Source: an uncultured bacterium
GTDB taxonomy: Bacteria; Patescibacteriota; Minisyncoccia; Phycocordibacterales; CAIZLB01
Reading direction: 5' to 3'
Assembly: GCA_903936565.1 (NCBI GenBank)
Contig: CAIZVZ010000001.1
Span: 95,905 to 159,904 of the forward strand
DNA length: 64,000 nucleotides
The notes beneath the pieces are model-generated. The model saw only the letters and a program-made list of their open reading frames with translations, was not told the DNA's origin and searched no databases. This document shows positions 38,267 through 56,761 of the stretch, one piece after another. How positions within the stretch are numbered: the stretch's first letter is position 1; the number at the start of each line of letters is the position of its first letter. The position numbers and the translations under genes were made by a program.

Positions 38267-38716
38267 TCAGACAATGTTGGCTGGTGACCTGACCCTGTTT
38301 TTGTATCTTTCATACATGTCTGTAGCGCAGAATGTAATAAGGATAGTGACGGCGAGTAGGGCCGGAACAAGGAGTATTGCTGCATAACGGAACTCAAAGA
38401 CGCGGTAACCCACTTTAGCAAAACCCATCGACCACAGAAGGAGCGAAGCTCCGTTCATGATGATGGGAAGGCAGAAGTAAGTCACAAAAACCCAGAAGAA
38501 CCAACCCCCGAGCATTCGCGTCCAACGAGACTTTCGTTGTAACTGCCCCCGCTCGATCATATGCACGACTACCAGGAACAATGCCGCAACTGGAGCGATT
38601 ACTTGAGTTAGTATGTAGTTTTCAAAGCCTCCATTTGCAAGGTACGTGTAAGGTGCCGAAATGATGCCGCCAACAATGAAGTAAGCAAGCGTCAAGATAA
38701 ACTTAATGGTGATATT
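38267..38716 (-). CDS. Hypothetical polytopic membrane protein (about 4 TM helices), GC-rich
   Basis: The ORF extends to 38761 using a TTG start; the internal ATG (MNITIKF) is more plausible. It is strongly hydrophobic. At 150-165 aa with about 4 helices it is not LivM. Confidence 0.45.
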   Translation of the reverse strand, partial: NITIKFILTLAYFIVGGIISAPYTYLANGGFENYILTQVIAPVAALFLVVVHMIERGQLQRKSRWTRMLGGWFFWVFVTYFCLPIIMNGASLLLWSMGFAKVGYRVFEFRYAAILLVPALLAVTILITFCATDMYERYKNRVRSPANIV

Positions 38717-38848
38717 CATGTGTGTCTCCTTCGATTTGTGTATGGTTGAGTGTTTGTACAATTGAACCGCTTAAGTTCAACACAAATACCATACCATACA
38801 CAGCACGTTTGTAAAGGTCTACTGAATTTATTTATCACCGCCACTTAA

Positions 38849-39724
38849 CTACCCCTTCTTCCCCATTATTCCTCCCGGCTTAAATATTAGAAACAGGATT
38901 AAGACACCAAACGCAATGGCGTCCTTCCATTCTCCAGAAATTTTCCAGATACCAAAGTTCTCAACAAACCCTAAAAAGAATGCTCCTAAGACTCCACCGT
39001 AAACATTTCCAACACCTCCAATAATTGAAGCAATAACTCCTTTCAGCAACAGATTCATTCCCATGGTTGGTTCAATTCCAGTATCAAATCCAATTGCAAT
39101 TCCCGCGACACCCGCAATCATTGATCCAATGAAAAAGACCTTGGCTATGATTTTATTCGCATTAATTCCGACAATCTTCGCAACCTCCACATCATCACTA
39201 ATCGCCTTCACAGCCTTTCCAAACTTAGTATATTTCATCGAAAGACCGAGTACCAACGTTATCAAAATTGCCGCAGCTAGAATAATGAGTTGAGTCTCAG
39301 TTATAATTCCACCAAAAATATTATAGACCTTTGACTCCCCAAAGTTTGTTGAGATTGTTTGGAATTGACTTGTAAAGATAATTGCAATGATCGCTTGAAG
39401 CGCAGTAAATAAGCCAAGCGACGCAACAAGCATCACCATTCCAGACGCTCGCTTTTCTCTCATTTTCAAAAAGACAAATTTCTCAGATAGATATCCAACA
39501 AATCCAGTAAATATTACCGCAATAATTATCGCCAACCAAATATCCATTCCATGATTCTTGGAAAGTGAAAAGACCGTGTAACCTGCAATTGTCGCAATAA
39601 CTCCATGATTGATATTGAAAAACTTGGTTGTGCCGAAAATTAAGTTGAATCCCAGCGCGACCAGTGAGTATATTGAACCTGCGATTATACTGTTGACGAT
39701 GAGTTGTGGAATTATTGAGTTCAT
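38849..39724 (-). CDS. livH: Branched-chain amino acid ABC transporter permease LivH-like
   Basis: 291 aa. It has the LivH-family motifs FNINHG, TKFGKAVKAISDDVEVAKIVGIN, GGVGNVYGG and a C-terminal FKPGGIMG. Confidence 0.85.
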   Translation of the reverse strand: MNSIIPQLIVNSIIAGSIYSLVALGFNLIFGTTKFFNINHGVIATIAGYTVFSLSKNHGMDIWLAIIIAVIFTGFVGYLSEKFVFLKMREKRASGMVMLVASLGLFTALQAIIAIIFTSQFQTISTNFGESKVYNIFGGIITETQLIILAAAILITLVLGLSMKYTKFGKAVKAISDDVEVAKIVGINANKIIAKVFFIGSMIAGVAGIAIGFDTGIEPTMGMNLLLKGVIASIIGGVGNVYGGVLGAFFLGFVENFGIWKISGEWKDAIAFGVLILFLIFKPGGIMGKKG

Positions 39725-39765
39725 TTTGTTTTATTTTAATTTGTGTGTTCGCGTTTTTATCTGTT

Positions 39766-40491
39766 TTATTTATGTGCCAAAAATACCTTTTCTAATAATC
39801 CTGAAGAAATTATATGCTGTGGCGTGTTATTTTCCACAACTTGGCCCTTATCCAAAAGGTACGCTCTATCTACAATTTCCAATACTGATTGCAAATTGTG
39901 CTCAACGATCATAATGGATGTTCCGTGCTTTTGATTAATTTCCTTTATCTTGGCAAAAACCTCCTTCACCACCTTTGGTGACAAACCAAGTGATGGCTCA
40001 TCAAGAAGTAGGACCTTTGGAGTTGTGACCAAACCTCTTGCGATTGCTACCATTTGTTGCTGCCCACCTGAGAGGTTTTTTGCTGGAACCTTTAGCTTTT
40101 TCCTGAGGTCTGGGAAAAGATCAAGAACCGCTTCAATGTTTGATTTCAAGACCGCTCTACTGTTTATTGAAAATCCTCCCATTTCTAGATTCTCAAGAAC
40201 GGTGAGAGATTTAAAGATTTGTCTTCCCTGTGGTACAAAGGAAATCCCACGCTCCACTATCTCATGCGGTACGGGGTAAATTCTTTCACCATAATAATAT
40301 ATCTCTCCACGCGTTACCGGTGCTATACCGAATAGGGCTTTTAGAATTGTAGACTTACCAGCGCCGTTTGGACCCATCAGGGCCAAGATTTCTCCGTCGT
40401 TTAAATATACGGTCGCACCGTCCAATGCCTTAACTCCACCGTAGTGGACGTGTATATCTTCTAGTCTTAAGAGATTTTCGTTTTCTTTCAT
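39766..40491 (-). CDS. livF: Branched-chain amino acid ABC transporter ATP-binding protein LivF-like
   Basis: It has Walker A GPNGAGKST, the signature LSGGQQQMVAIARGL and Walker B LLLDEPS. Confidence 0.85.
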   Translation of the reverse strand: MKENENLLRLEDIHVHYGGVKALDGATVYLNDGEILALMGPNGAGKSTILKALFGIAPVTRGEIYYYGERIYPVPHEIVERGISFVPQGRQIFKSLTVLENLEMGGFSINSRAVLKSNIEAVLDLFPDLRKKLKVPAKNLSGGQQQMVAIARGLVTTPKVLLLDEPSLGLSPKVVKEVFAKIKEINQKHGTSIMIVEHNLQSVLEIVDRAYLLDKGQVVENNTPQHIISSGLLEKVFLAHK

Positions 40492-40596
40492 GTGATGTTT
40501 TATTACCTATATTTTAACTTAAATTTGGGATAAATACAAAAGGCACCCATCTACATAGTTTATGTAAATCAGGTGCCGTTCTGCAGTAGTGTGACT

Positions 40597-41670
40597 TTAC
40601 TTAGGCAACATCCCATTCTCAATAACTCCAATCTTAAACTCCGGCTTTCTAACACCAACTGAATCAAATTCAATCTTTCCACTAACTCCACTTGAATTTG
40701 ATTTCAAGATGTTAGCCATCCATTTTGAATTATCAGAGCTGTAATTATTAGATAGTAGATTTACAGCATCATATCCAACGTTTCCAGTTAGTATATTTGA
40801 GTTGCCAAATCTTTTTGTATATGAGGCAACAAAGGCAGGTTCGTTGAAATTTCCAACAACCACAACCTTACTTCCGTTAAACATCTCTGGGCTCGCAATC
40901 TTCGTTGCTGACTCCCAACCATTTTGAAGATCACAATCGAAATAGTACGATACGTTCTTCATTCCTAATTCATTGAAAGTTTTAAGGAATCTTGCCATTA
41001 AGTCAGGTGTAATAACAAGGGCAACAGCATCAGGATTCAGAGCTTTAATCTTTAAAGCAAAAGTTCTAATATCTTGCTCTCCAAAATTCACAACAAACTC
41101 ATCTACATTTCCTTGATAACCCTCCTTAACACCCTTAGAAAATCTTGCAAAGACAGCGTGATTTCCTGTCACCATTACAACTTTTTGCTTTCCATCCTTT
41201 TTAATTTCTTGCCCCATTGCAACTTCACTTGCATAGTTCCCAGGATAAATTTGCAAAACATTGTCATCCTTTGGATCAAGTGATTGCTCACCGCCGTTGA
41301 TGACAGGCATTCCGTCCGCCACTACATCATTATAGATGGAATCGATAGTAATTGTATCAACTGCAATTAATACATTTATGTGATCTATACTTTTTAACTT
41401 CTTATAAGCCGACAATGACTTACCAGGGTCAAATGCTCCGTCTTCAACAATCAACTCAATTTTCTTGTCCGGATTTTTTGCTTTTATTTCCTCCACAGCA
41501 AGTAACGCACCGTTTCTAAAAGTTTCACCAACAGATGCATAGTTACCAGAGAAAGGACCAATAAGACCAATTCTCAAAACCTGATCATCCTTTTGTCCTC
41601 CACCAAATGCAAAAACCGCCACTACAACTATCACTATCGCGACCACCCAAGCAATAACTTTTTTATTCAT
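40597..41670 (-). CDS. LivK-like type-I substrate-binding protein, signal-anchored, SBP-2
   Basis: It has LRIGLIGPFSGNYASVGE ... KKIELIVEDGAFDPGKS. The ORF runs to 41748, but a start at MNKKVIAW (41670) matches the M-(K/N)-K-hydrophobic start of every other SBP in the array. Confidence 0.8.
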   Translation of the reverse strand: MNKKVIAWVVAIVIVVVAVFAFGGGQKDDQVLRIGLIGPFSGNYASVGETFRNGALLAVEEIKAKNPDKKIELIVEDGAFDPGKSLSAYKKLKSIDHINVLIAVDTITIDSIYNDVVADGMPVINGGEQSLDPKDDNVLQIYPGNYASEVAMGQEIKKDGKQKVVMVTGNHAVFARFSKGVKEGYQGNVDEFVVNFGEQDIRTFALKIKALNPDAVALVITPDLMARFLKTFNELGMKNVSYYFDCDLQNGWESATKIASPEMFNGSKVVVVGNFNEPAFVASYTKRFGNSNILTGNVGYDAVNLLSNNYSSDNSKWMANILKSNSSGVSGKIEFDSVGVRKPEFKIGVIENGMLPK

Positions 41671-41791
41671 AATTTTATCTTTTAAATAATTAATGTAATC
41701 ATTATAAACCCTCTCACAATTAAAGACATTTAATTTGTATTTTGGCAATTATGCACACAATTAGGCTATGTTTAAAGGCTTATATTATTAA

Positions 41792-41813
41792 TCAATATGT
41801 CAGGAATATTGAC
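41792..41813. promoter_or_regulatory. Inverted repeat TCAATATGTCAGGAATATTGAC (8-bp arms) in the SBP-2/TrmB divergent intergenic region; core GTCAGRAATATTGAC recurs at 43902-43916
   Basis: Palindrome read directly; it is shared with the next cassette. Confidence 0.35.
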
Positions 41814-41845
41814 ATTTTATTGATAAAGACATACAATTAATCACA

Positions 41846-42637
41846 ATGTCAAGAAAAGTAACCAAAAATCCATATCTATTTTCTGCCAATGAGAGACTAT
41901 TGTTGGCTAATATACAAAAGCACAATACCCCACTTGAATTATCTGCTGTGACCAAAATCCCCCGCCCCACCGTTTACATTACACTAGAGAAATTAGAGAT
42001 TAGAAATTTAGTACACAGCACTAAGATTTTAAAGAAAAGAAAATGGTTCTTAAATGCAAATATTGAATTGAATGATTTGATAGGTAAGGACGGAGGTACC
42101 ACAATTCATCCAGTAAGTAACCCCACCTCCCCTACTCCAGGAGTCCAGATATATACAGACAAAAAGGATATCTTTAAAGTACTCGATAGAATAAGCGCGC
42201 CATCCAAAACTCGTCTTCAGATCTTGAGTGGAGATAATATTTTGAACGACTACGACACCGCAGTTGGAAAGAATAAAATAATTGAATTCAATGAAAAGAT
42301 TAAAGCTTCAAATATTATTGTTGAGGCAATTTGCACCAGATTTGTCTTTGACACTCAAATGGTCCACTTTGGTGAGGACTGGACCGAGTCTTATATGGGA
42401 AGATCCACTGAAGTGCACACGATTAATAAAAAGTATCTAAACCACAATAGGCAGATTTTCATCTATAACAATCGTGTCTACTTTTTTATGCTAGATAGAC
42501 CTGCCATTTTAGAAGTCTCTGATTCAAACCTAGTTAAAGCATTTATGTCTATTTTTGAATTCATCAAAGACTACTCACCAAACTTTGATATGAATAGTTA
42601 CATGAAGGAAAAAATGGATAAAAACAAGAGCAAGTAA
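41846..42637 (+). CDS. TrmB-family winged-helix transcriptional regulator, R-1
   Basis: The N-terminal HTH LSAVTKIPRPTVYITLEKLEIRNLV matches the TrmB HTH pattern (xxIAxxxxIPRxxVYxxLxxLxxKGxV). It is 263 aa and divergent from SBP-2. Confidence 0.7.
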   Translation: MSRKVTKNPYLFSANERLLLANIQKHNTPLELSAVTKIPRPTVYITLEKLEIRNLVHSTKILKKRKWFLNANIELNDLIGKDGGTTIHPVSNPTSPTPGVQIYTDKKDIFKVLDRISAPSKTRLQILSGDNILNDYDTAVGKNKIIEFNEKIKASNIIVEAICTRFVFDTQMVHFGEDWTESYMGRSTEVHTINKKYLNHNRQIFIYNNRVYFFMLDRPAILEVSDSNLVKAFMSIFEFIKDYSPNFDMNSYMKEKMDKNKSK

Positions 42638-42686
42638 AAAACAGCAGGAGTTCCTACTGTTTTCCACTCTACCCTCCAGCTAAATA

Positions 42687-43778
42687 TTATTTCACTGTTA
42701 ATTCTCCATTTATAATCTCCCCTATCTTAAATTGTGGCGGCCTCATACCCACGTCATTAAATCTTATTTCTCCGGTAACGCCCATTGCTTTATATTTCTC
42801 GATATTGCTCTTCCACTTAGACTGGTCTTTATCGTATAAATTAATAGCGGTCATATAAGCGTCATATCCAAAGCCTGATAACATAGATACGTTCTGATTA
42901 AATCTAACCTTATATTTCTCTTGAAACTCCTTAGTCATCTCTGCTGCAGAGTATAGACTCTTTGAACCGTTAAGAGTACTCAGACCTCCAAGTGCATCTT
43001 TGTAATCATTAATTCCAAATTGTAGATTGATGTCAAAGTACATGTGTTTAGGCACAGCATTGAAATCTTTCAACTTACGAACAAGCTTTGCTCCATCTTT
43101 TGCCTCCATAAATATAAGTAATCCATCCGGGTTTGATTCTTTTATTTTCAGTGCAATACTACTCATATCCTTTTCTGATGTACTTATTCTCTGAATTTCA
43201 ACCTCTCCCTTATATGTTTTAGTAAAGTCAGAAACAAATTTCTCATAAGCCTTAAATTGTTGCATGGCAATTACCACCTTCTTTACCTCATCCTTGTTTG
43301 CAACATCACCCATTACCCCAATTGAAGTTTGATCAGGATATATTTGATATATGTTATCTGCGATTGGATCACTCTCCGCTCCAAGTTGAAATGTAAGCAT
43401 TCCGCTATCGTGAACATCCTTAGAGATAACATCTATTGTTGGAGATGACAGATTAATTAGCGTGTCAATTTTATTAATAGAAACTAATTTCTGATACGCT
43501 GACGCACCTTTTTTTGAGTCAAAGTTATCATCTTCAATAAATACATTTATTTTCTTTTCGGGATGTGCTTTTGCATATTCCTCCTTGGCTAAAGTGATTC
43601 CGTTAGCAAAACCCTGACCCAAGTTGTCACCTCCAGATATTAAACCTGTAAGTGAGGTTATAACACCTATATTAATTGAGTCTGCCTGCTTACCATTTGA
43701 ACCATTAAGCGATATGACGATGATGACAATTACTGCTATTGCTACCAAACCTGTTACTAATTTATTATTTTTCTTCAT
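42687..43778 (-). CDS. LivK-like type-I substrate-binding protein, signal-anchored, SBP-3
   Basis: An MKKNNKL plus TM helix start is followed by INIGVITSLTGLISGGDNLG ... KKINVFIEDDNFDSKKG. Confidence 0.8.
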   Translation of the reverse strand: MKKNNKLVTGLVAIAVIVIIVISLNGSNGKQADSINIGVITSLTGLISGGDNLGQGFANGITLAKEEYAKAHPEKKINVFIEDDNFDSKKGASAYQKLVSINKIDTLINLSSPTIDVISKDVHDSGMLTFQLGAESDPIADNIYQIYPDQTSIGVMGDVANKDEVKKVVIAMQQFKAYEKFVSDFTKTYKGEVEIQRISTSEKDMSSIALKIKESNPDGLLIFMEAKDGAKLVRKLKDFNAVPKHMYFDINLQFGINDYKDALGGLSTLNGSKSLYSAAEMTKEFQEKYKVRFNQNVSMLSGFGYDAYMTAINLYDKDQSKWKSNIEKYKAMGVTGEIRFNDVGMRPPQFKIGEIINGELTVK

Positions 43779-43901
43779 ATTTTTTAATTTATTTTTATGA
43801 CATCATTTTATGGCAATGTACAGATAGAGTCAAAGTTTATAAATATGACTAACCGATATTAGGCCTATTTATAGAGCTAATATGGTCATACATAATTGGT
43901 A

Positions 43902-43916
43902 GTCAGAAATATTGAC
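43902..43916. promoter_or_regulatory. GTCAGAAATATTGAC motif (within palindrome TAGTCA-n7-TGACTA) upstream of the R-2 start
   Basis: Same 15-mer class as 41799-41813. Confidence 0.35.
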
Positions 43917-43946
43917 TATTTTGCAAATATTGATAAAATGTTGTAT

Positions 43947-44684
43947 ATGAATGAAATACTAAAAGCACTAACGAACGCTGGCCTAAATCAAAAGGAGGCA
44001 GAAATATATCTAATTCTTTTAAAACTAAAGACTGCCACAGCCTATAAAATTGCAAAGGACTCTTCCATCAAAAAACCGACCGTGTATGTAATTCTTGAAA
44101 CACTAAGGCAAAAAGGCTTTATTCTTAAGACCCCTTCAAAGCGAGGTACGGTCTATACTGCAAAGTCCCCCGATGAATTCATCAATATTATTGAACAGAA
44201 GTTTACTAGCGTCCTCAACACCCTACCTTTACTTAAAAGTATATTTAAGGAAAGTTCAAATAATATTAATGTCTTTTATTTTGAGGGAATGAAAGGTCTA
44301 GAAGATTTATGCTATTACAGATTCGATGAGATAAATGATACCGAGATGGTTGGATTCTTTGCTAAGCCATCAACTAATTTTAAGGAATACGAAGCGTTAT
44401 TTACGAAATGGTCAAAAGATCTATTAAAAAGAAAAGTAAAAATAAGTGGAATAACCCCGGACCATCAATATATGAAAGGTCAAGTTGAAAATAACAGAGA
44501 TGCTTATCGTAATTTGAAATTAGTAGACCCGGAAAAATATTCATCAACCGTTTCCATAGATGTCTCGCTTAATTTTGTAAGAATCATGGATCTCAAGAAT
44601 CTTAATGGAGTTATAATTGAGAATACTGATTTAGCAAACGCGATTCACCAGGTGTTTGATATGGTCTGGGAGGGTCTCAAATAA
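43947..44684 (+). CDS. TrmB-family winged-helix transcriptional regulator, R-2
   Basis: It has the HTH KEAEIYLILLKLKTATAYKIAKDSSIKKPTVYVILETLRQKGFI. The ORF opens at 43896, but the likely start is MNEIL at 43947. Confidence 0.7.
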   Translation: MNEILKALTNAGLNQKEAEIYLILLKLKTATAYKIAKDSSIKKPTVYVILETLRQKGFILKTPSKRGTVYTAKSPDEFINIIEQKFTSVLNTLPLLKSIFKESSNNINVFYFEGMKGLEDLCYYRFDEINDTEMVGFFAKPSTNFKEYEALFTKWSKDLLKRKVKISGITPDHQYMKGQVENNRDAYRNLKLVDPEKYSSTVSIDVSLNFVRIMDLKNLNGVIIENTDLANAIHQVFDMVWEGLK

Positions 44685-44691
44685 TATTATA

Positions 44692-45765
44692 CTATTTAAT
44701 ATCCACAAACTTACCATCTGCAACAGTAGAGACTTGATATTGATCCTGTAAGTCACCATTGGTGTCAAAATTGATTGAGTAAGTTAGACCCGGATAATCT
44801 TTTATACCAGCTACATAATCTTTTATACACAGATTCTTGTCCCCTGTTGTACATTTATCTAGGGAAGAAATTAGTATTTTCATGGAGTCATAATTTCTAG
44901 TAGTCACATAGTTTGGAGCTTCCTTATACTTCTCCAGATATGACGTCCCAAAATCTTTATTTACCAACAGTACTGAAGGCGAAATTATAATCACACCCTC
45001 TGCGTATTGTCCCGCCATATTAATCAACTCTGGACTATAGCATGCCGATCCGCAATATATCTTCGTATTAACACCAAGCTCCCTTGCTTGTTTTACAAAA
45101 ATTCCCGCTTCCTTTCCCCATGAGGCAATAAATATCACATCCGGATTTGCGTTTTTTATTTTTATTATTTGAGATCTTAAATCAGTATCTGTTGGCAAAA
45201 AACCTTCTGATGCCACTATATTATCTTTATCAAAATTTTTAGTAAATGCATCTGCAATCCCCTTTCCATAATCATTATTAAGATAAATAACCGCTACTCT
45301 TTTTTTGCCGTCCTTTAATATCGTGCTTTTAATTGTAGACATTTCAACATCAGTTGTACCGTTTATTCTAAAAGTATAATCGTTAGGAGTTGAATACGGT
45401 GGGGCCGCTACTATACTAAATGTTGGTATTTTACTTTCATTGACTACAGGTGCAATCGCCATAGCAACTGGACTTCCAAGTGAAAATACAGCTCTAATAC
45501 TTTTATCATTTTTATATTGATTAATGATAGATATAGCCTTCTTAGCGTCTAGCTGACTATCTTCAAAAATAATCTCAAGATTCTTACCCTCTGACGCTAG
45601 CTGCAAACCTCTTTTTGCCCATTCTCCATGTTGAGAATTAGAACCACTCAAAGGAAGTATCGCAAGCACCCTATCTTTACCAGAATTATTATTCCAACCA
45701 CTGAATACGACAATAAAGACGATTATTACGATAGCGGCAATCCAGTATAATTTGTTTTTATTCAT
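44692..45765 (-). CDS. LivK-like type-I substrate-binding protein, signal-anchored, SBP-4
   Basis: An MNKNKLYW plus TM helix start is followed by LAILPLSGSNSQHGEWAKRG ... EIIFEDSQLDAKKA. Confidence 0.75.
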   Translation of the reverse strand: MNKNKLYWIAAIVIIVFIVVFSGWNNNSGKDRVLAILPLSGSNSQHGEWAKRGLQLASEGKNLEIIFEDSQLDAKKAISIINQYKNDKSIRAVFSLGSPVAMAIAPVVNESKIPTFSIVAAPPYSTPNDYTFRINGTTDVEMSTIKSTILKDGKKRVAVIYLNNDYGKGIADAFTKNFDKDNIVASEGFLPTDTDLRSQIIKIKNANPDVIFIASWGKEAGIFVKQARELGVNTKIYCGSACYSPELINMAGQYAEGVIIISPSVLLVNKDFGTSYLEKYKEAPNYVTTRNYDSMKILISSLDKCTTGDKNLCIKDYVAGIKDYPGLTYSINFDTNGDLQDQYQVSTVADGKFVDIK

Positions 45766-45865
45766 TATGTTGAAATTATACTACCTCCACATACTGAGTC
45801 AAATTACATAAATTATTTAGAATTTCTTTATAGAGGCATTATACCCTTTATTTATAATTGTCGGC

Positions 45866-46693
45866 ATGACAAAAATAAACATAAAGAATCAAGAAATTAC
45901 AATCAATTTATCAAAGATGGGAGATGATTATATATCGCTGACAGACATAGCTAGATACAAGAATCCACATGAACCGAAGGATGTGGTAAAAAACTGGATG
46001 AGAAATAAAAATACTATTGAATTTTTAGGGTTGTGGGAAAGAATAAACAACCCTCATTTTAAGGGGGTCGAATTCGACCCCCTTAAAAAAGAAGCTGGTT
46101 TAAACAGTTTTACCCTATCCCCAGAAAGATGGACCAAGCTGACTGGTGCTATTGGCGTTAAAACACTAGCTAGGCGTCACAATGGCGGGACATTTGCCCA
46201 CAAAGATATCGCTTTCGAATTTGCAAGTTGGGTATCTTCTGAATTTAAGCTGTATTTGATTAAGGAGTTCCAAAGGTTAAAAAATGAGGAGAACGATAGA
46301 CTGAATCTCGGATGGAATGTTAGGAGATTGTTAACTAAAATAAATTACAAGATACACACAGATTCCATAAAAGAAAACATAGTCATGCCTCAAAAGTTAT
46401 CTGGAAAGGATTCAATGGCGGTTTATGCCAATGAAGCCGATGTTTTAAATAAAGCCTTATTTGGTATCACAGCTAAAGAATGGAGAGATGCGAACACAAA
46501 GCTTAGAGGTAACATCAGAGACTATGCAAATATCATACAATTAGTCTGTTTAGTTAATTTAGAAAACTTGAATTCAGAATACATCAAGGAAGGACTTAGC
46601 CAAGGAGAAAGATTAATTAAGTTAAATGAAATTGCAATTCATCAGATGGGTTTACTTATAGATAATTCGGGTATCAGAAAGCTGGGCAAATAA
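45866..46693 (+). CDS. KilA-N domain-containing protein (phage/APSES-type DNA-binding domain)
   Basis: The N-terminal 150 aa match the KilA-N pattern (ISLTDIARYKNPHEP...NWMRNKNTIEFLGLWERINNPHFKG..EFD.LKKEAGLNSFTLSPERW...GGTFAHKDIAFEFASWVSSEFKLYLIKEFQRLK). It occupies the slot where the other cassettes carry a TrmB gene. Confidence 0.75.
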   Translation: MTKINIKNQEITINLSKMGDDYISLTDIARYKNPHEPKDVVKNWMRNKNTIEFLGLWERINNPHFKGVEFDPLKKEAGLNSFTLSPERWTKLTGAIGVKTLARRHNGGTFAHKDIAFEFASWVSSEFKLYLIKEFQRLKNEENDRLNLGWNVRRLLTKINYKIHTDSIKENIVMPQKLSGKDSMAVYANEADVLNKALFGITAKEWRDANTKLRGNIRDYANIIQLVCLVNLENLNSEYIKEGLSQGERLIKLNEIAIHQMGLLIDNSGIRKLGK

Positions 46694-46761
46694 GTGTCAA
46701 ATTTTAAGTAGGTTAAATTAGGTCAGTTTAAAGGGTTCTATTTAAGCCTCTTTAAAACCAC

Positions 46762-46794
46762 AAAAAACAGCGGATGAAATCCGCTGTTTTTTTA
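46762..46794. terminator. Bidirectional intrinsic terminator ACAGCGGAT-gaa-ATCCGCTGT followed by TTTTTTT
   Basis: Perfect 9-bp stem flanked by an A-run and a T-run, between convergent genes. Confidence 0.7.
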
Positions 46795-46814
46795 TATCAA
46801 TAATCTCAAACTCT

Positions 46815-47882
46815 CTACTCCTCCAGCTTCACAAACTTCCCATCCTTGAATATGTGTAGCTCGTACGCAGCTGGTCTTGTTCCTTGGTTATCAAAGGAAA
46901 CTCTTCCTGACACACCATCAAAATTTGTTTTAGCCACCACTGATTTCCAATCTTTCTTAGGAACACCTCCTAGCTTCTTAATGATTTCTGCAGAGTCATA
47001 AGCATAATCACTTATGAACAATGGATCGTAACCGTACTTGGCCTTAAATGCATCTTTGAAGCTCTGTGTAGTGTCTGATGGAAGATTAGCTGATATACAT
47101 CCCTGTAGCATCTTATCGCTTCCTAACGCCTTAATATAATCTCCAACAACAAACTCTATATTAGCATCACATATCACTGAAACATTCTTTGAACCCTTTT
47201 GTTCTCCAAGAGTCTTAAGTAATTTAATGCCAGTATCCTTATCAACAATCACCGTCATAGCATCTGGATTGAACGCAAGTATCTTCGCAACTTCTGTTCT
47301 CAGGTCTCCATTTGGAGCAATATTAAAATCCTCTGTAATTACATTTTGACCCAAAGCCTTTTTGAAGTATTCAGCGTCAGTCTTAAATATATCTAAGCTC
47401 CCACTGTATACCACAGCAATTCTACTGTATCTTTTTGAAGCCTCTTTTCCAACAGCACTAAAGATTGGATAACTGAATGGTATTGTTTGGAAAACCGTAT
47501 CATCTTTCTTTGTATTAGATTCAGTTAAGTGAAAAGTTAAAATTTGATCTTTTTCAATTAGAGCCTGATTAGCATCCAATGACGGACTATCAACATTTAT
47601 TATCACATCCACCTTATCGATTGAAGTTAACTTTTGATAAGCAGAAACTGCTTTCTTTGGATCAAATGCATCATCCTCAAACACAACCTGTATATTTGAA
47701 TCCTTTTCGAAACTCATTAAAATTGAATTTCGAATACTTTCACCAAGAGCTCCGTATTGTCCGGACATTGGCGCTATGACACCAACTTTAATTTTTCCAC
47801 TTGGCTTTTCTTTTGACGAATATGCAACCGCTGTCAAGATTATCGCTATTACAACTATTCCTATAATTATTTTTTTCCTCAT
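46815..47882 (-). CDS. LivK-like type-I substrate-binding protein, signal-anchored, SBP-5
   Basis: It has IKVGVIAPMSGQYGALGE ... VVFEDDAFDPKKA, and the C-terminus ends ELHIFKDGKFVKLEE. Confidence 0.8.
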   Translation of the reverse strand: MRKKIIIGIVVIAIILTAVAYSSKEKPSGKIKVGVIAPMSGQYGALGESIRNSILMSFEKDSNIQVVFEDDAFDPKKAVSAYQKLTSIDKVDVIINVDSPSLDANQALIEKDQILTFHLTESNTKKDDTVFQTIPFSYPIFSAVGKEASKRYSRIAVVYSGSLDIFKTDAEYFKKALGQNVITEDFNIAPNGDLRTEVAKILAFNPDAMTVIVDKDTGIKLLKTLGEQKGSKNVSVICDANIEFVVGDYIKALGSDKMLQGCISANLPSDTTQSFKDAFKAKYGYDPLFISDYAYDSAEIIKKLGGVPKKDWKSVVAKTNFDGVSGRVSFDNQGTRPAAYELHIFKDGKFVKLEE

Positions 47883-48065
47883 AAATTTAATTTGATTATT
47901 ATCTATTAAATTAACTGTTAATTTCTGATGTCAAAATTATAAAACAGATGCTGTGAGTTGTAAAAAGTAAGGTCATTTTCATAAGCACTTCCAAATAGTC
48001 CTTTATATACAAAGTATTTTATAATATATATTGACTAAAAGTTCGACATAATATACTATTTAAAC

Positions 48066-48911
48066 ATGAAAATAAGCAAGGAGAATGCGGAAATACTTGG
48101 TTTATCAAAGGCGGAGCTTTCTATTATCGATAGCCTAGAAGCAAAGGACTCCAAACACAAAGACCTCTCCATCATCAATATATCAAAAGAAACTGGCATC
48201 CCCCGCACTTCCCTGTACTATATGCTACCTAAATTAGAAAAACGTGGTTTTATTGAAATTAAAAGAAATAACAAGAAAATATTCTGGCGAAAAAGCAGGG
48301 ATGAAGATTTTCAAAAGAAATTCTTGAGAACAATTGAAGACATTACCGAGAATAAAATTACTCACCACTCCCCCACCTCGAACAACAACCACATAAAAGT
48401 GCTTTATGGTACAGATCAGCTTTCAACAGTCTTTGATGAGATCACCGCCCTGCCTAGCAGAACTAGAGTTTTTGCTATTCAACCGGACCTATCAATTCTA
48501 GATGTGATCAAGAAACTACCTATTAAAAAATCAATAGCGGTCTGTGACGGTATTAAAAGTAAACATCTCATAATGGATGGAATAGTACATGAAAAATCTA
48601 TTGATTCCATAAAAGGCTCACTTAGTGACAAAAGAGTTACGAAGGAATTACTCAGCAGCTTCGGAGGAAGATCTGCTGATATGGCTAAAATGCCAGATAA
48701 CTTTCTGCCTACCACCCACGCTGAAACATATCTTTATGAAGATAAGGTTACGCTATTGAATTGGGATAAAGAAATAGCGGTCATTATAAAAGATAAGGAC
48801 ATATTCCAACTTATCAAGGAAATGTTTAATTCCACAAAATATCTAATGGAGAGATACGATCAGAATGAGAAGATTGCGAGAAGATTGGTAGATTTAGAAA
48901 AACTACATTAG
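48066..48911 (+). CDS. TrmB-family winged-helix transcriptional regulator, R-3
   Basis: It has the HTH ELSIIDSLEAKDSKHKDLSIINISKETGIPRTSLYYMLPKLEKRGFI. Its C-terminus is nearly identical to that of R-7 (60069-60920). Confidence 0.7.
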   Translation: MKISKENAEILGLSKAELSIIDSLEAKDSKHKDLSIINISKETGIPRTSLYYMLPKLEKRGFIEIKRNNKKIFWRKSRDEDFQKKFLRTIEDITENKITHHSPTSNNNHIKVLYGTDQLSTVFDEITALPSRTRVFAIQPDLSILDVIKKLPIKKSIAVCDGIKSKHLIMDGIVHEKSIDSIKGSLSDKRVTKELLSSFGGRSADMAKMPDNFLPTTHAETYLYEDKVTLLNWDKEIAVIIKDKDIFQLIKEMFNSTKYLMERYDQNEKIARRLVDLEKLH

Positions 48912-48944
48912 AATCAAGATATATAAACGAGGGTGGTTTTTATA

Positions 48945-50012
48945 TTAGAACTCCGTTACCTCTAAATAATCCTTTCTTGAAACAACATCCCCATTTGACT
49001 GGAATTTATATGATGTCATTGCCCCGTCGATTCCAGCTAGAGCTTTATTCTTTAAAAGCTTGACCCTGTCACTGTCCACAACCTCAACACCATCAAGTGA
49101 CTTATCAATAAAGTTCAAGACATCAAATGTAACAGCATTATAGAAAGGATACGTTGGCTCATGTCTATATTTCATTTTAAAATCAGAAATATACTTATTA
49201 TATCCATCACTCTTTAGTACTGTTTTTAGACATTGTCCATGAATATCAAATTTGGAAATCATAGATAATTTATCACAGACATTAACATCTCCAAGAATTT
49301 TATTACTTATTCCAAGCTCCCCCATTTCCCCTAGGATAATTTTAGTAGCACCATCAGCGACTGGTATAAAAATTATTTCATCGTATTTCAAATCCTTTAG
49401 TTTCGAAAGTTCACTCCTATAACTTACCGCATCTGACGCATAAGTAATCCTTGAAACTATTTGACTACCAACCTGACTTATCAAGAAATCACCTGCAGAT
49501 TGTGAATAATCTTGCTTTTCATGCATTAAGACATATTTTTGGTCTGGATTTTGCTTCACAATATTTACAAGATTTTCAGAAATAGAAAGTCCATCTGGAA
49601 TAAATCGAATAACCTCGTCCCCCGTTTTTCTAATTTCAATTGAACCACCAAAACCTGTCATAATTACATTTCCATCTTCTTTAACAACAGGAGCAAGAGC
49701 AAGGATACTTCCACTACACGCAACGACATACACCTTAATACCCTGAGATTTTAAAATATTATAAGCAGACAATGCGCCCTTTCCAGTACATTGATCATCT
49801 TGTGCCACAAACTGTATATTTTTTGCGCGCTCACCATACATCTTTACTGATTTCTGTAAATCGTCAGTAATAGATGCGGCTGGACCAGTTAAAGGCATAA
49901 TTAATCCTACCTTTATCTTTTCTCCATCATTTTTATTAGCAAAGGCAAAGACAATGCCTAGCACAATTACAATTAGTAGTACCAATATCCACTTAAAATT
50001 ATTGTTTTTCAT
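48945..50012 (-). CDS. LivK-like type-I substrate-binding protein, signal-anchored, SBP-6
   Basis: The likely start is MKNNNFKWILVLL at 50012. It has IKVGLIMPLTGPAASI ... FVAQDDQCTGKGA. Confidence 0.75.
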   Translation of the reverse strand: MKNNNFKWILVLLIVIVLGIVFAFANKNDGEKIKVGLIMPLTGPAASITDDLQKSVKMYGERAKNIQFVAQDDQCTGKGALSAYNILKSQGIKVYVVACSGSILALAPVVKEDGNVIMTGFGGSIEIRKTGDEVIRFIPDGLSISENLVNIVKQNPDQKYVLMHEKQDYSQSAGDFLISQVGSQIVSRITYASDAVSYRSELSKLKDLKYDEIIFIPVADGATKIILGEMGELGISNKILGDVNVCDKLSMISKFDIHGQCLKTVLKSDGYNKYISDFKMKYRHEPTYPFYNAVTFDVLNFIDKSLDGVEVVDSDRVKLLKNKALAGIDGAMTSYKFQSNGDVVSRKDYLEVTEF

Positions 50013-50120
50013 AATGTCTAATATTATACAACAGCACAGGATTGTGTACAAAATAATAGACTATTACTTCACGGGACTTGATTTTATCCTTATATTACTA
50101 TATATTATCGATTATAAATT

Positions 50121-50897
50121 ATGTCTATAATGGTAAACAAATTAAAGGAGAGAGATTTAAAGAAGCGTCTCATGGATGACGCTGGTTTTTCTGATAAGAA
50201 GGCGGCAATTTATATGTCTATATTAAAACTAGGTGAAGCAACCTCAAATGAAATCGCCAAGAGTGCTAATATAAAAAGGACCACTGTGTACAATATCCTA
50301 CCAGAACTTTTAAAAGAGGGTGTCGTTCGTAAAACCAAGAGACTGAAGAAAACTTTATTCTACATTGAAGACACAAGCGATTTAGTATCGAGACTTGATG
50401 AAAAGAGATTTGGTATTGAAGAAATTCTCCCTGACCTCAACAGCCTGCAAATGTCTAATAGGTCCAAACCTAAAGTCGTTCAATACGAAGGGCAAAATGG
50501 TATCATACAACTTTATAAAGATTTACTTAATTCAATTCCTGTTGGAGGAGAGCTACTTTCCGTAATTGGCGCCAACTACGCAAAGGACTTAATGCCGTAT
50601 CATATACTTGAATACTATTCAGATTTTAGATTAAAGAAGAAAATAAGACACAGACTAATTGGCACAAATAATGATTTCATAAAGGAATTTAAAGCAAAGG
50701 ATAAAGACCAATATCGAGAAACGAGGATTCTAGAGGAAGGAAACGAATTGATTGGTTCAGATATTAGAATTTTTGGTAACAAAGTTGCAATGCTCTCTTT
50801 TAAAGAAGGCTTCATTGGTGTAATTATAGAAAGTGAGGATTTACATAAGCTAAACAAGGTAATGTTTGAGAGAGTCTGGAATACTTTGAAGGCGTAA
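50121..50897 (+). CDS. TrmB-family winged-helix transcriptional regulator, R-4
   Basis: It has the HTH KKAAIYMSILKLGEATSNEIAKSANIKRTTVYNILPELLKEGVV. Confidence 0.7.
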   Translation: MSIMVNKLKERDLKKRLMDDAGFSDKKAAIYMSILKLGEATSNEIAKSANIKRTTVYNILPELLKEGVVRKTKRLKKTLFYIEDTSDLVSRLDEKRFGIEEILPDLNSLQMSNRSKPKVVQYEGQNGIIQLYKDLLNSIPVGGELLSVIGANYAKDLMPYHILEYYSDFRLKKKIRHRLIGTNNDFIKEFKAKDKDQYRETRILEEGNELIGSDIRIFGNKVAMLSFKEGFIGVIIESEDLHKLNKVMFERVWNTLKA

Positions 50898-50922
50898 AAC
50901 ACCCCATCTACCTAGCCAGCAA

Positions 50923-51657
50923 CTACTCCCCCAAATATGCCTCCACTACATCTCTCTGCTTCAAGACAGTCTCTGGTTTACCATGTGCCAACAACTCTCC
51001 AGCATCAAGTACAACAACCGTATCACACAAGTCTCTAATAATTTCCATATTGTGCTCGACTAGAATTACAGTCTTCCCAGCCTCTCGTAATTCTTTAATA
51101 ATTTCTGAAACTTTCTTTATCATTTCTTTAAACAATCCAGCATAAGGCTCATCAAAAAGAATAATGTCAGCATCCATCGCTATTGCTCTACCAATCTCCA
51201 ACAATTTTCTTTGCCCGTATGAAAGATTCACGGCAAGCTCATGTTTCTTTTCAGATATATCTAGTTTTTCTAAAATTTCAATCGCTCTATCTTCATACAG
51301 CTTTTTCTTTTTCTCAAATAGTGCACCCAGTGCATTTCTGTGAGTCAATACAACCATCAAGTTATCAAGAACGCTCATTTGTTCAAACACTCTAACGTTT
51401 TGAAATGTACGAGTTATTTTATAATCATACATATCCTGTGCCATTATCTTATCAGTCTTAAATCCATCGGCAATGAATATTGTACCGGAGTCTTTTGGGA
51501 TGATACCGGTAATCAAATTAATCAGCGTTGACTTACCAGATCCATTGGGACCAACTAGACCCGTTATCTTGCCAGCCTCGAATTCTAGGCTAAGACCATT
51601 AACAGCCTTAACGCCATAGAAGTGTTTATTGAAGTTGTGAAGTTTTAATGTGGACAT
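50923..51657 (-). CDS. livG: Branched-chain amino acid ABC transporter ATP-binding protein LivG-like
   Basis: It has Walker A GPNGSGKST, the signature LSYGQRKLLEIGRAIA and Walker B ILFDEPYAG. The likely start is MSTLKLHNF; the ORF extends to 51711. Confidence 0.85.
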   Translation of the reverse strand: MSTLKLHNFNKHFYGVKAVNGLSLEFEAGKITGLVGPNGSGKSTLINLITGIIPKDSGTIFIADGFKTDKIMAQDMYDYKITRTFQNVRVFEQMSVLDNLMVVLTHRNALGALFEKKKKLYEDRAIEILEKLDISEKKHELAVNLSYGQRKLLEIGRAIAMDADIILFDEPYAGLFKEMIKKVSEIIKELREAGKTVILVEHNMEIIRDLCDTVVVLDAGELLAHGKPETVLKQRDVVEAYLGE

Positions 51658-51806
51658 TAGATATATTATAATACAAAATTGAAAAATTAAGAATGCCTCA
51701 CAAAGGGTCAAACTAGAACTTAAAAGTCAGTATTCCATAGACTTAACCACATAAACAGCGCTGTTTCCTAGACTTAAGTCTTATAAATAAGTTATTATTA
51801 CTGTAT

Positions 51807-52761: not shown

Positions 52762-53595
52762 CTAAACCCTCTCCATCACCCCACGTATTGCCTTATTGTG
52801 GTCAATCTTCTTGCCGCCCGCTTTTACAAACTCAAACATATCAGAGAGAAACAACGCCATACTCTTGTTTGTAATTTCAATTGCCACCTCCTCATGCCAA
52901 TTAATCAAAAGGGCTGTGCTTTTAAATAACCAGATTTCGCAATTATGATTGAAGAAATTATTTGGAAAAACAGTATAGTCTGCCATTCTTCCACTCAAAC
53001 TCTCCACTGTTTCTTTATTTTTTCTTGGGTCTTTCTTTATTTCTTGTAAATATGAGTCGTATGCAGATTCATTAAGCATCCCATCCAATATCAAATGATT
53101 CTTAACAATAGACCTATTGAAATCAACCAGTTGATCTTTGCTAACCTTATCCTGCAGTTCCATCCATGACTTATGGTGCTGAATAGCTTTGATACGTTCA
53201 TTCTTATTTACTGATGAAATTCGCTGATATGCTGGGACAATTTCCTTGGCACCGACGTGGATGATAAACTCATTTTCTTTAGATGTTTTAACTCTAGCGC
53301 CACGAAGTTCTCCAGCGCTTTTTGATTCTATATTTATTTCGTCAAATACATCCTTAAACCTTGACGATAATTCTTTTTTGCAAATCGCAATATATACTGA
53401 CCTTTTACCAACTTTCACACATTCAACAAGCCCCTTGTCCATCAACTTCTCCAGCACGTACAAAATACCCGTACGAGATAATCCCGTGAGTCTTTTGATG
53501 TCCTGTGGGCTTTTTGCAAAGCCTAAGGCCTTAAGTACCTCAATTTCAGTCTCGGTTAATCCAAGTATTTTGAATGTTTTACTATACCAATTCAT
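52762..53595 (-). CDS. TrmB-family winged-helix transcriptional regulator, R-5 (cassette in reversed orientation)
   Basis: It has the HTH TEIEVLKALGFAKSPQDIKRLTGLSRTGILYVLEKLMDKGLV. Confidence 0.65.
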   Translation of the reverse strand: MNWYSKTFKILGLTETEIEVLKALGFAKSPQDIKRLTGLSRTGILYVLEKLMDKGLVECVKVGKRSVYIAICKKELSSRFKDVFDEINIESKSAGELRGARVKTSKENEFIIHVGAKEIVPAYQRISSVNKNERIKAIQHHKSWMELQDKVSKDQLVDFNRSIVKNHLILDGMLNESAYDSYLQEIKKDPRKNKETVESLSGRMADYTVFPNNFFNHNCEIWLFKSTALLINWHEEVAIEITNKSMALFLSDMFEFVKAGGKKIDHNKAIRGVMERV

Positions 53596-53800
53596 GTATT
53601 AAATATAGCAAATAACTAATTTTTAGTCAATTAGATATATGAAAATATGGCCTTGTAAAGCAGTTTAAACGCTAAACAATTTTAATGACACAGTTTTATA
53701 GACCATGTCAAATCAATCAACTATAATGGACCTATTATAAATTTTAGAAATTAACCATCCGCGATGTTATAATAATATCGTAATAAATAAATTATAAATT

Positions 53801-54907: not shown

Positions 54908-55074
54908 AGCTGCCATCTAACCCACCACTACCTAGTTTCAAATCAAATAGCACACAAAACCCCAAGATATTAAACTTGGGGTTTTGTAATTTACAATCCA
55001 TAGCTTTGTGTTATATTCCTAATGGCTAAACATTAAGTCTTTCAACTACAACCAACCCGAACAATACCCCGTAT

Positions 55075-55410: not shown

Positions 55411-55436
55411 GTCCAGGAACACAACCCCACACCAAC

Positions 55437-55471
55437 CAAAATCGGCAGCTAAACCAAGGCTGCCGATTTTT
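55437..55471. terminator. Bidirectional intrinsic terminator AAAATCGGCAGC-taaaccaag-GCTGCCGATTTT
   Basis: 12-bp stem flanked by A and T tracts, between the 55075 ORF (+) and SBP-8 (-). Confidence 0.65.
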
Positions 55472-55507
55472 GAACTATTGTTTTATTCACTCAATAATAT
55501 TGACCGT

Positions 55508-56608: not shown

Positions 56609-56761
56609 ATGCATATTTAATATTTAGTGGAATAAAGCATAACACCCATAGCTATTGATGTCATGAAATTTAATTGCATAATTATTTTTCCTATGCGATG
56701 GCTTCACATAAGGACAATTCACATGTTTACTGTTGTCCTGTTTTGTGACAGAATATTAATC

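What the first reader, a model, noticed from the sequence alone, without database searches (positions are those of the whole stretch)
38849..51711. Unbalanced Liv-type transporter: one LivH, one LivF and a distant LivG serve 12 SBPs, with no LivM in the window
A canonical LIV-I system has livK (or livJ) with livH, livM, livG and livF. Here livF (39766-40491) and livH (38849-39724) are adjacent. The only livG (50923-51657) is 10 kb away inside the SBP array. No LivM-like permease of about 300-420 aa with 8-10 TM helices is present. The membrane protein at 38267-38716 is too small. Either all 12 SBPs dock onto one shared translocator whose second permease is encoded elsewhere, or LivH works as a homodimer. 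Alternatively some SBPs are not transport components and act only as sensors.
Basis: partly seen in the sequence, partly recalled or inferred. Interest (0 to 1): 0.55.

Follow-up and report, generated by a model that had tools for sequence, protein, structure and literature searches.

The report
Scattered but complete Liv-type importer
The "missing" second membrane subunit of this amino-acid-type importer lies just 6.8 kb beyond the window; the transporter is complete, but in this tiny-genome CPR (Patescibacteria) bacterium its four core genes have been pushed apart by about 13 binding-protein genes, most paired with their own regulator gene.

Summary
livH (38849-39724) and livF (39766-40491) are adjacent, livG (50923-51657) lies 10 kb away, and no LivM-like gene or remnant is present. 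This is a window-edge effect. A contig 100% identical to the window's last 3.2 kb continues the sequence and carries an intact 288-aa LivM-type permease at window-equivalent 70820-71686, on the same strand, at the far end of the same array. The system is one complete HAAT/LIV-type ABC importer (H, M, G, F) in three apparent transcription units: livM, livG and livF-livH. These units flank or sit inside an array of 13 exported binding proteins, most divergently paired with a TrmBL2-like regulator gene; a 14th binding-protein gene lies at 32491-33624. The organism is a CPR/Patescibacteria bacterium. In 80 related genome loci the basic order is SBP-H-M-G-F, and binding-protein genes often sit between the core genes. 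Core proteins are strongly conserved (96-99% amino-acid identity at about 89% DNA identity to the nearest relative). The LivH-homodimer idea is unnecessary. One translocator shared by many binding proteins is the best reading, and it has precedent (LivJ/LivK; BraC3 with BraDEFG). The missing-LivM puzzle is therefore ordinary; the dispersed, cassette-filled operon is a modestly interesting variant.

The parts
38849..39724 (-). livH-type permease (291 aa), first half of the heterodimeric membrane channel
   Evidence: PF02653 full length, E 1.9e-42. Best NCBIfam matches are UrtB and LivH, below equivalog cut-offs. 98.6% aa identity at 89.7% nt identity to the L019 ortholog.
39766..40491 (-). livF-type ABC ATPase (241 aa), apparently co-transcribed with livH (41-bp gap)
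   Evidence: PF00005. Best NCBIfam matches are UrtE (212 bits) and LivF (185 bits). 98.8% aa at 89.2% nt identity to L019.
40530..40585 (-). Terminator-like hairpin plus U-run that separates the upstream SBP gene from livF-livH
   Evidence: RNA fold -25.7 kcal/mol, z = -4.1 against shuffles, followed by UUUUGUAUUU.
50923..51657 (-). livG-type ABC ATPase (244 aa), a solitary gene inside the array
   Evidence: PF00005 plus the BCA_ABC_TP_C tail. Best NCBIfam matches are UrtD (193 bits) and LivG (169 bits). A perfect TATAAT box lies about 10 nt upstream of the ATG, and the upstream neighbour is divergent. In L019 this gene directly abuts livF-livH.
40597..50897 (.). Five SBP genes (40597-41748, 42687-43778, 44692-45765, 46815-47882, 48945-50051, all minus strand), each with a divergent partner gene: TrmB-like at 41846-42637, 43896-44684, 48066-48911 and 50121-50897, and KilA-N at 45866-46693. 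This block separates livG from livF-livH.
   Evidence: Pfam Peripla_BP_6, TrmB and KilA-N. The block is absent between livG and livF in the close relative L019.
52762..64000 (.). Right-hand part of the array inside the window. SBPs: 53801-54907(+), 55508-56614(-), 57562-58707(-), 58776-59885(-), 61756-62916(-), and 63810-64000 (3' end of a sixth SBP gene, 63810-64904, cut by the window end). TrmB-like genes: 52762-53595(-), 56663-57502(+), 60069-60920(+), 62955-63734(+).
   Evidence: Pfam and local HMM scan of the window plus its extension. The array continues outside the window with the rest of that sixth SBP gene, two further SBP/TrmB pairs, and then livM at window-equivalent 70820-71686(-).
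32491..33624 (+). Outlying 14th SBP gene (377 aa) with no partner regulator, between priA-like and def genes
   Evidence: Peripla_BP_6 E 3.5e-47. Context.
38267..38719 (-). 150-aa hydrophobic ORF next to livH; not part of the transporter
   Evidence: No Pfam or NCBIfam match, about four hydrophobic segments, no similarity to LivM. The segment is absent in L019, where 60 bp replace 648 bp.

Best explanation
This is one complete LIV-I/HAAT-type ABC importer of a CPR (Patescibacteria/Parcubacteria-type) bacterium. It has a LivH-LivM heterodimeric channel, LivG and LivF ATPases, and many extracellular substrate-binding proteins. Its core genes are no longer contiguous. On the minus strand the order is livM (6.8 kb beyond the window), about 19 kb of SBP/regulator cassettes, livG, about 10 kb with five more cassettes, then livF-livH. 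Each core unit appears to have its own promoter and to be insulated by terminators. Most of the 13 array SBP genes are separate units, divergently paired with a TrmBL2-like winged-helix regulator gene. Most likely mechanism: the conserved translocator is made from three units, while the SBP genes are switched individually by their neighbouring regulators. All the diverged SBPs (21-39% identical to each other, each tethered by an N-terminal helix) deliver different small nutrients, probably amino acids or related compounds, to the single LivHM-GF core. Shown here: gene presence, positions, completeness, conservation, SBP export signals, the regulator fold, and the spread of this arrangement among relatives. 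Inferred: that all SBPs share this one core, that the TrmB-like proteins control the adjacent SBP genes, and the nature of the substrates.
For: No LivM is in the window. A 116,819-bp contig carries the exact window LivH and the exact window SBP from 61756-62916, with gene coordinates that map base for base onto the window; it has a 288-aa PF02653 gene at window-equivalent 70820-71686. L017 carries that gene (P0241), and its positions 17687-20867 are 100% identical to window 64000-60820. P0241 is seen on 20 contigs with a longest contig of 224,964 bp, the same figures as the window's LivH and LivG; LivF is on 19 contigs. P0241 is PF02653 full length, its best NCBIfam match is LivM (160 bits) followed by UrtC, and it is a 22%-identical full-length paralog of LivH. 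The two ATPases sort into G-type and F-type. Across 80 Patescibacteria genome loci the base order is SBP-H-M-G-F: HMGF is contiguous in 14, and all four genes are present but interrupted by SBP or TrmB/SBP genes in 26. H-M is interrupted in 9 loci, M-G in 31 and G-F in 15. A compact TrmB-H-M-G-F operon with a divergent SBP exists in L012. The core is under strong purifying selection: LivH 98.6%, LivF 98.8% and LivG 96.3% aa identity at about 89% nt identity to L019. All 14 SBPs have a basic N-terminus plus one hydrophobic helix and match solved HAAT amino-acid SBPs. Insulating hairpins and promoter-like boxes lie at livF, livG and livM. The TrmB-like model (pLDDT 89.6) matches TrmBL2 over its full length, E 9e-13. 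Precedent for an orphan SBP using a Bra/Liv core: PMC2978685.
Against: I could not read the whole genome, so a second HAAT translocator elsewhere is not excluded. No expression or binding data exist. The promoter/terminator consensus scan was not enriched over shuffles (67 vs 56.4 +/- 7.2 promoters; 9 vs 9.1 terminators), so the transcription-unit structure rests on a few individually strong signals. Every NCBIfam equivalog score is far below its cut-off, so the substrate class is unknown. TrmBL2, the closest fold, is a chromatin-like repressor that lacks a sugar-sensing subdomain, so ligand-responsive control by the TrmB-like proteins is conjecture.
Confidence: 0.8

Rival explanations
1. LivH works alone as a homodimeric channel, so this lineage has dispensed with LivM.
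For: No LivM lies within 10 kb of livH in the window or in its closest relatives L001, L019, L020 and L021.
Against: An intact, conserved LivM sits at the other end of the same array in the same genome. It is seen on 20 contigs with the same longest contig as LivH. Close relatives also keep a solitary LivM (L006, L008). LivM orthologs are 64-100% identical to the L003 LivM query across the group.
Confidence: 0.03
2. Some or many of the SBPs are not transport components. They might act as surface sensors, adhesins or ligand scavengers that never dock on LivHM.
For: The ratio of SBPs to translocators is extreme (14 to 1). The paralogs are highly diverged (21-39% identity), so conservation of a docking surface is untested. 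HAAT-type SBP folds are used as sensors elsewhere (for example AmiC, seen among the weak PDB hits).
Against: In relatives without TrmB genes the extra SBP genes are co-directional with and interleaved between H, M, G and F, for example sHMsssGssF, which is typical of co-expressed transport components. No signalling partner (kinase or chemoreceptor) is encoded in the array. All the SBPs have ordinary export/anchor helices.
Confidence: 0.15
3. Additional HAAT translocators elsewhere in the genome serve part of the SBP array, so the real ratio is less extreme.
For: The whole genome could not be searched. The genome survey used two peptide patterns specific to this LivH orthogroup, so divergent paralogs would have been missed.
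Against: CPR genomes are small, and no second permease pair lies in the 81.7 kb examined. In every surveyed locus the SBP arrays accompany this single orthogroup.
Confidence: 0.15
4. The system is a decaying remnant: the operon was broken up by rearrangements and is no longer functional.
For: Core genes are dispersed. A KilA-N gene and strain-specific ORFs lie within the array, and accessory or defence-like genes sit at the same junctions in relatives.
Against: All four core genes are intact and full length and as constrained as MreB and PriA. SBP and TrmB orthologs are also conserved, at about 96% aa identity with about 90% nt identity. Interrupted arrangements persist across many Patescibacteria lineages.
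Confidence: 0.02

Closest known systems
E. coli LIV-I system (livJ / livKHMGF), HAAT family of ABC importers (TC 3.A.1.4; from established knowledge)
   Same: The component set is the same: two paralogous PF02653 permeases (H-type and M-type), two ATPases (G-type with the BCA_ABC_TP_C tail, and F-type), and Peripla_BP_6 binding proteins. More than one SBP (LivJ and LivK) uses one translocator.
   Different: The core genes are spread over about 33 kb in three units rather than one operon. LivM is 288 aa, without the N-terminal extension of the 418-position LivM model. There are 14 SBPs instead of 2. The SBPs are helix-tethered rather than free periplasmic proteins. All NCBIfam equivalog scores are far below their cut-offs, so substrate specificity cannot be transferred.
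Rhizobium BraDEFG with BraC and the orphan SBP BraC3 (PMC2978685)
   Same: An SBP encoded away from the core genes docks onto a single HAAT membrane complex and changes its specificity. This is the functional model proposed here.
   Different: That system has one or two orphan SBPs and an intact core operon. Here there are 13-14 SBPs, the core itself is split, and most SBPs have a dedicated neighbouring regulator gene.
Urea ABC transporter UrtABCDE
   Same: The Urt models are the top NCBIfam hits for LivH (UrtB, 132 bits), LivF (UrtE, 212 bits) and LivG (UrtD, 193 bits).
   Different: All scores are below the equivalog cut-offs of 250-304 bits. The one SBP tested (40597-41748) scores 25.8 bits against the UrtA cut-off of 492.75. 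LivM matches the LivM model better than UrtC. This is not a urea transporter by these tests.
TrmB-family regulators, in particular TrmBL2 of Thermococcales (PDB 5bqt, 5bpd)
   Same: Winged-helix PF01978 domain, a long dimerisation helix and a PLD-like C-terminal domain; full-length Foldseek match at E 9e-13.
   Different: These are bacterial (CPR) proteins present in many diverged copies (19-41% identity), each divergent from an SBP gene. TrmBL2 is a single global chromatin-like repressor. There is no sugar-binding subdomain as in TrmB or TrmBL1, and only 16% sequence identity.

Membership tests
HAAT / LIV-I-type ABC importer | Two paralogous PF02653 (BPD_transp_2) permeases, one LivH-type and one LivM-type | tested here: met
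   LivH is in the window. LivM (P0241) is at window-equivalent 70820-71686 in the same genome. They are 22% identical over their full length. The best NCBIfam matches are LivH/UrtB for one and LivM/UrtC for the other.
HAAT / LIV-I-type ABC importer | Two distinct ABC ATPases, LivG-type (with the BCA_ABC_TP_C tail) and LivF-type | tested here: met
   50923-51657 matches UrtD/LivG and has PF12399. 39766-40491 matches UrtE/LivF.
HAAT / LIV-I-type ABC importer | Exported Peripla_BP_6 (LivJ/LivK-like) substrate-binding protein | tested here: met
   14 SBPs match a local HMM built from eight of them; the 12 run against Pfam all match PF13458. All 14 have N-terminal anchor helices. The nearest solved structures are HAAT amino-acid SBPs.
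HAAT / LIV-I-type ABC importer | Core genes in one contiguous operon (typical of the family, not strictly defining) | tested here: not met
   The order is livM ... livG ... livF-livH spread over about 33 kb. Contiguous HMGF is seen in only 14 of 80 related loci.
E. coli LivHMGF equivalogs (branched-chain amino acid specificity) | NCBIfam equivalog score above the curated cut-off | tested here: not met
   LivH 115 bits vs cut-off 379, LivM 160 vs 366, LivF 185 vs 441, LivG 169 vs 362. The substrate cannot be assigned.
Urea transporter UrtABCDE | Equivalog scores above cut-off, and a UrtA-type SBP | tested here: not met
   UrtB 132 vs 250, UrtE 212 vs 286, UrtD 193 vs 304. The one SBP tested (40597-41748) scores 25.8 against the UrtA cut-off of 492.75.
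Multi-SBP / orphan-SBP sharing of one translocator (LivJ/K; BraC3-BraDEFG) | Several SBPs of the cognate family but only one translocator in the genome | not testable with these tools
   There is one translocator in the 81.7 kb examined.
Multi-SBP / orphan-SBP sharing of one translocator (LivJ/K; BraC3-BraDEFG) | Transport of each SBP's ligand depends on the shared core | not testable with these tools
   This needs genetics or reconstitution.
TrmB family transcription regulators | N-terminal PF01978 winged helix plus a coiled coil and a PLD-like domain | tested here: met
   PF01978 hits on the nine in-window TrmB-like genes, one of them (41846-42637) below Pfam's gathering score. AF2 model pLDDT 89.6, with a full-length match to TrmBL2 at E 9e-13.
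TrmB family transcription regulators | C-terminal sugar-binding subdomain (TrmB/TrmBL1 type effector sensing) | tested here: not met
   The proteins are 245-283 aa. The model ends after the PLD-like domain. The best match is TrmBL2 (chains of 253-263 residues); from established knowledge, TrmBL2 lacks the sugar-binding subdomain of TrmB and TrmBL1.

The most novel reading that the evidence does not exclude
In Paceibacteria-type CPR bacteria, one highly conserved Liv-type translocator may serve as a universal docking port for a strain-variable set of plug-in cassettes. Each cassette is a diverged, membrane-tethered binding protein plus its own TrmBL2-like switch. The cassettes insert into and between the core genes, and they differ even between genomes at about 89% DNA identity. 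If so, this array would be the main, individually regulated nutrient-scavenging organ of these auxotrophic cells. It would also show an operon being taken apart by expansion of its own accessory genes.
Probability: 0.45. Interest if true: 0.55.

Novelty: new variant of a known kind. Interest (0 to 1): 0.35.

Why it matters
The specific puzzle, a Liv transporter without LivM, disappears: the gene lies just outside the window, so no unusual homodimeric permease needs to be proposed. What remains has some value for CPR biology. These bacteria have small genomes and few biosynthetic pathways, yet this one devotes about 33 kb to a single importer with 13-14 binding proteins, most with a private regulator gene. 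That suggests uptake of a wide, separately controlled range of small molecules through one channel. The survey shows that insertion of binding-protein genes between the core genes is common in this group. Annotation pipelines and readers that expect a contiguous livHMGF operon will therefore often call these systems incomplete. I found no paper that describes this arrangement.

Tried and rejected
1. I searched the window for a diverged or decayed LivM, using phmmer with LivH, phmmer and tblastn with five LivM-type proteins, and a hydropathy scan of all ORFs. Only livH was found.

2. The 150-aa membrane ORF next to livH is not a mini-LivM. It has no family match and no similarity to LivM, and it is absent in L019.

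3. The third ABC ATPase at 19713-20474 is not a Liv component. It belongs to a MacB-type set with an FtsX permease and an HlyD adaptor.

4. P0142 and P0134 were tried as the window genome's LivM. P0142 comes from a different organism with a compact operon. P0134 comes from a near relative. P0241 is the correct one.

5. The KilA-N protein at 45866-46693 was tested as a TrmB-like regulator with a swapped DNA-binding domain. It shows no similarity to the TrmB-like C-terminal domain.

6. The consensus promoter/terminator scan was not enriched over shuffles and was not used as statistical evidence.

7. A search for shared operator palindromes in the divergent intergenic regions gave only short AT-rich repeats and recurring TGACA/TGTCA words that overlap -35-like boxes. 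This was inconclusive.

8. The PDB sequence search for LivH and LivM found nothing.

9. My first, gap-based count of H-M adjacency was wrong, because stop-to-stop ORF coordinates begin upstream of the true start codon. I replaced it with a count from the gene-order strings.
Full report
**1. The observation**

- 38849-39724(-) encodes a 291-aa protein that matches the Liv permease family PF02653 end to end (E 1.9e-42).
- 39766-40491(-) and 50923-51657(-) are ABC ATPases. The first scores best against the UrtE/LivF models. The second scores best against UrtD/LivG and carries the LivG-specific C-terminal tail PF12399.
- Peripla_BP_6 binding-protein (SBP) genes alternate with divergently oriented genes of about 260 aa that have a TrmB-type winged helix.
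- The window holds 11 complete SBP genes and the 3' end of a 12th, cut by the window end.
- No second PF02653 permease is in the window. phmmer with LivH, and phmmer plus tblastn with five LivM-type proteins from relatives, hit only livH itself at about 22% identity. No other ORF has a permease-like hydropathy profile.
- The 150-aa hydrophobic ORF beside livH has no family match and is missing from a close relative.
- A third ABC ATPase at 19713-20474 belongs to an unrelated MacB-type efflux set, with an FtsX permease and an HlyD adaptor.

**2. Where LivM is**

LivH homologues are numerous, 65-94% identical among the hits listed, and those with names come from Parcubacteria and other CPR/Patescibacteria MAGs. 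Their neighbourhoods differ:
- A 69%-identical relative (L003) has livH followed directly by a second 288-aa PF02653 gene, with livG 5 kb away among SBP/TrmB pairs.
- An 84%-identical relative (L001) has livF-livH with no second permease nearby, like the window.
- Close relatives carry a solitary 288-aa LivM-type gene at the edge of an SBP/TrmB array (L006, L008).

I then looked outward from the last SBP gene of the window (61756-62916).
- A 116,819-bp contig carries both that exact protein and the exact window LivH. Its gene coordinates map base for base onto the window (window coordinate = 72917 - locus coordinate).
- On that contig a 288-aa PF02653 gene lies at window-equivalent 70820-71686 on the minus strand.
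- A cluster look-up identified the protein as P0241. It is seen on 20 contigs with a longest contig of 224,964 bp, the same figures as the window's LivH and LivG; LivF is on 19 contigs.
- Locus L017 carries P0241, and its positions 17687-20867 are 100% identical to window 64000-60820 (3,181 bp, no mismatch).
- P0241 covers PF02653 end to end (E 4.9e-45). Its best NCBIfam match is LivM, followed by UrtC. It is a full-length, 22%-identical paralog of LivH.

The core is therefore complete. livM lies 6.8 kb beyond the window and 31 kb from livH.

**3. Anatomy of the whole locus (window plus 17.7 kb)**

On the minus strand the order is:
- livM (70820-71686);
- eight SBP genes, six TrmB-like genes and a few small ORFs;
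- livG (50923-51657);
- five SBP genes, each with a divergent partner (four TrmB-like, one KilA-N);
- livF-livH (40491-38849).

That gives 13 SBP genes in the array plus an outlier at 32491-33624, and 10 TrmB-like genes.

The core units look separately transcribed.
- A strong hairpin (-25.7 kcal/mol, z = -4.1) followed by a U-run separates the last SBP gene from livF.
- livG has a divergent upstream neighbour and a perfect TATAAT box about 10 nt upstream of its ATG.
- livM follows a GC-rich hairpin with a T-run.

These are individual signals only; the generic consensus scan was not enriched over shuffles.

All 14 SBPs begin with a short basic stretch and one hydrophobic helix, with no lipobox cysteine. 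They are therefore exported and probably helix-tethered. They are only 21-39% identical to one another. Their nearest solved relatives are HAAT-family amino-acid-binding proteins.

**4. The partner regulators**

A structure model of the TrmB-like protein at 43947-44684 was confident (mean pLDDT 89.6). It shows a winged helix, a long helix and an alpha/beta domain. Its best match in the PDB is the full length of TrmBL2 (E 9e-13). The C-terminal part also resembles PLD-fold proteins. These are therefore real TrmB-family DNA-binding proteins with the TrmBL2 architecture. They lack the separate sugar-binding subdomain of TrmB and TrmBL1, so whether they sense a ligand is open. The KilA-N protein that occupies one regulator slot is unrelated to them outside the DNA-binding role.

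**5. How general the arrangement is**

I scanned reference genomes with a LivH alignment and obtained 80 Patescibacteria loci. I annotated them with local HMMs.
- The base pattern is SBP-H-M-G-F.
- HMGF is contiguous in 14 loci. All four genes are present but interrupted by SBP or TrmB/SBP genes in 26.
- H-M is adjacent in 60 loci and interrupted in 9. M-G is adjacent in 23 and interrupted in 31. G-F is adjacent in 27 and interrupted in 15.
- Examples: sHMsssGssF (L060), HtsMGtstsF (L044), HtssMtsG (L093).
- The window's closest relatives (L019-L021) share the rearranged G-F-H or F-H order, with M elsewhere.
- A compact TrmB-H-M-G-F operon with one divergent SBP exists in another member (L012).

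The array turns over quickly.
- L019 is about 89% identical to the window at the DNA level, with LivH 98.6% identical in amino acids. There, livG abuts livF-livH and the window's five-cassette block (40.6-50.9 kb) is absent.
- Relatives carry unrelated accessory genes at the same junctions: a PycTM protein in L020, and a PRiA4_ORF3 protein plus an AAA_14/DUF4143 ATPase in L019.

**6. Function and rival readings**

The core genes are as constrained as housekeeping genes. Against L019, LivH is 98.6%, LivF 98.8% and LivG 96.3% identical in amino acids at about 89% DNA identity, compared with MreB at 100% and 91.4%. Orthologous SBP and TrmB genes are also conserved, at about 96%. The system is therefore in use and not decaying.

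The best reading is one LivHM-GF translocator shared by many individually expressed SBPs.
- This is a known principle (LivJ/LivK in E. coli, from established knowledge; the orphan BraC3 with BraDEFG, PMC2978685), here taken to a ratio of about 14 to 1.
- A LivH homodimer is unnecessary.
- Non-transport roles for some SBPs, or further translocators elsewhere in the genome, cannot be excluded without the full genome or experiments.
- All NCBIfam equivalog scores are far below their cut-offs, for both the Liv and the Urt models. The substrates are unknown, and 'branched-chain amino acid' should be read only as a family label.

**7. Novelty**

Four literature searches found no description of SBP/TrmB cassette arrays or dispersed liv genes in CPR bacteria. 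One freshwater CPR study mentions only that some classes encode branched-chain amino acid importers (PMC9166423). No solved structure of a LivH or LivM relative was found by sequence.

The gene organisation behind it is a new variant of a known kind of system and is of moderate interest for understanding nutrient uptake in CPR bacteria.

Noticed in passing
window 45866-46693 (+): A 275-aa KilA-N-domain protein (E 1.8e-20) sits exactly where a TrmB-like regulator would be, divergent from the SBP gene at 44692-45765. It shows no similarity to the TrmB-like C-terminal domain, so it is probably a mobile-element or phage-derived gene that replaced or displaced a regulator.
   Followed up: partly
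window 40597-50897, compared with L019 6907-8687: A block of five SBP/regulator cassettes (about 10.3 kb) lies between livG and livF in the window but is absent in a genome that is about 89% identical at the DNA level. In L021 two of these cassettes lie on the other side of livG. The array is rearranged between close relatives.
   Followed up: partly
L020 7374-7916; L019 4382-6917; contig (167-aa gene): Variable accessory genes sit at array junctions in relatives: a PycTM (Pycsar-effector-like) membrane protein, a PRiA4_ORF3/DUF6930 protein, and an AAA_14/DUF4143 ATPase. The SBP array appears to be a hotspot for insertion of accessory genes, some of them defence-like.
   Followed up: partly
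window 38267-38719 (-): A 150-aa ORF with about four hydrophobic segments and no family match lies immediately downstream of livH, followed by a GC-rich hairpin and a T-run. The segment is absent in L019. Its function is unknown.
   Followed up: partly
window 41749-41845, 43779-43946, 47883-48065, 53596-53800, 56615-56722, 59886-60068: The divergent SBP/TrmB intergenic regions repeatedly contain ATGACA/TGTCAT-like words and short AT-rich inverted repeats, for example AATATGTCA-7 nt-TGACATTTT at 41794. These could be operator half-sites or simply -35-like boxes.
   Followed up: partly
window 19713-23317 (-): A MacB-type tripartite efflux set: an HlyD-like adaptor (515 aa), an FtsX-type permease (424 aa) and an ABC ATPase (253 aa). 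It is unrelated to the Liv system.
   Followed up: yes
window 51640-51660 and L017 9990-10003: livG and livM both have a -10-like box (TATAAT; TATTAT) only about 5-10 nt upstream of the ATG, with no obvious Shine-Dalgarno sequence. This suggests very short or leaderless 5' ends.
   Followed up: no
window 51807-52760 (+): A 317-aa protein with only a weak, sub-threshold DUF3793 match lies between livG and an inverted TrmB/SBP cassette. It is conserved in same-strain contigs. Its function is unknown.
   Followed up: no
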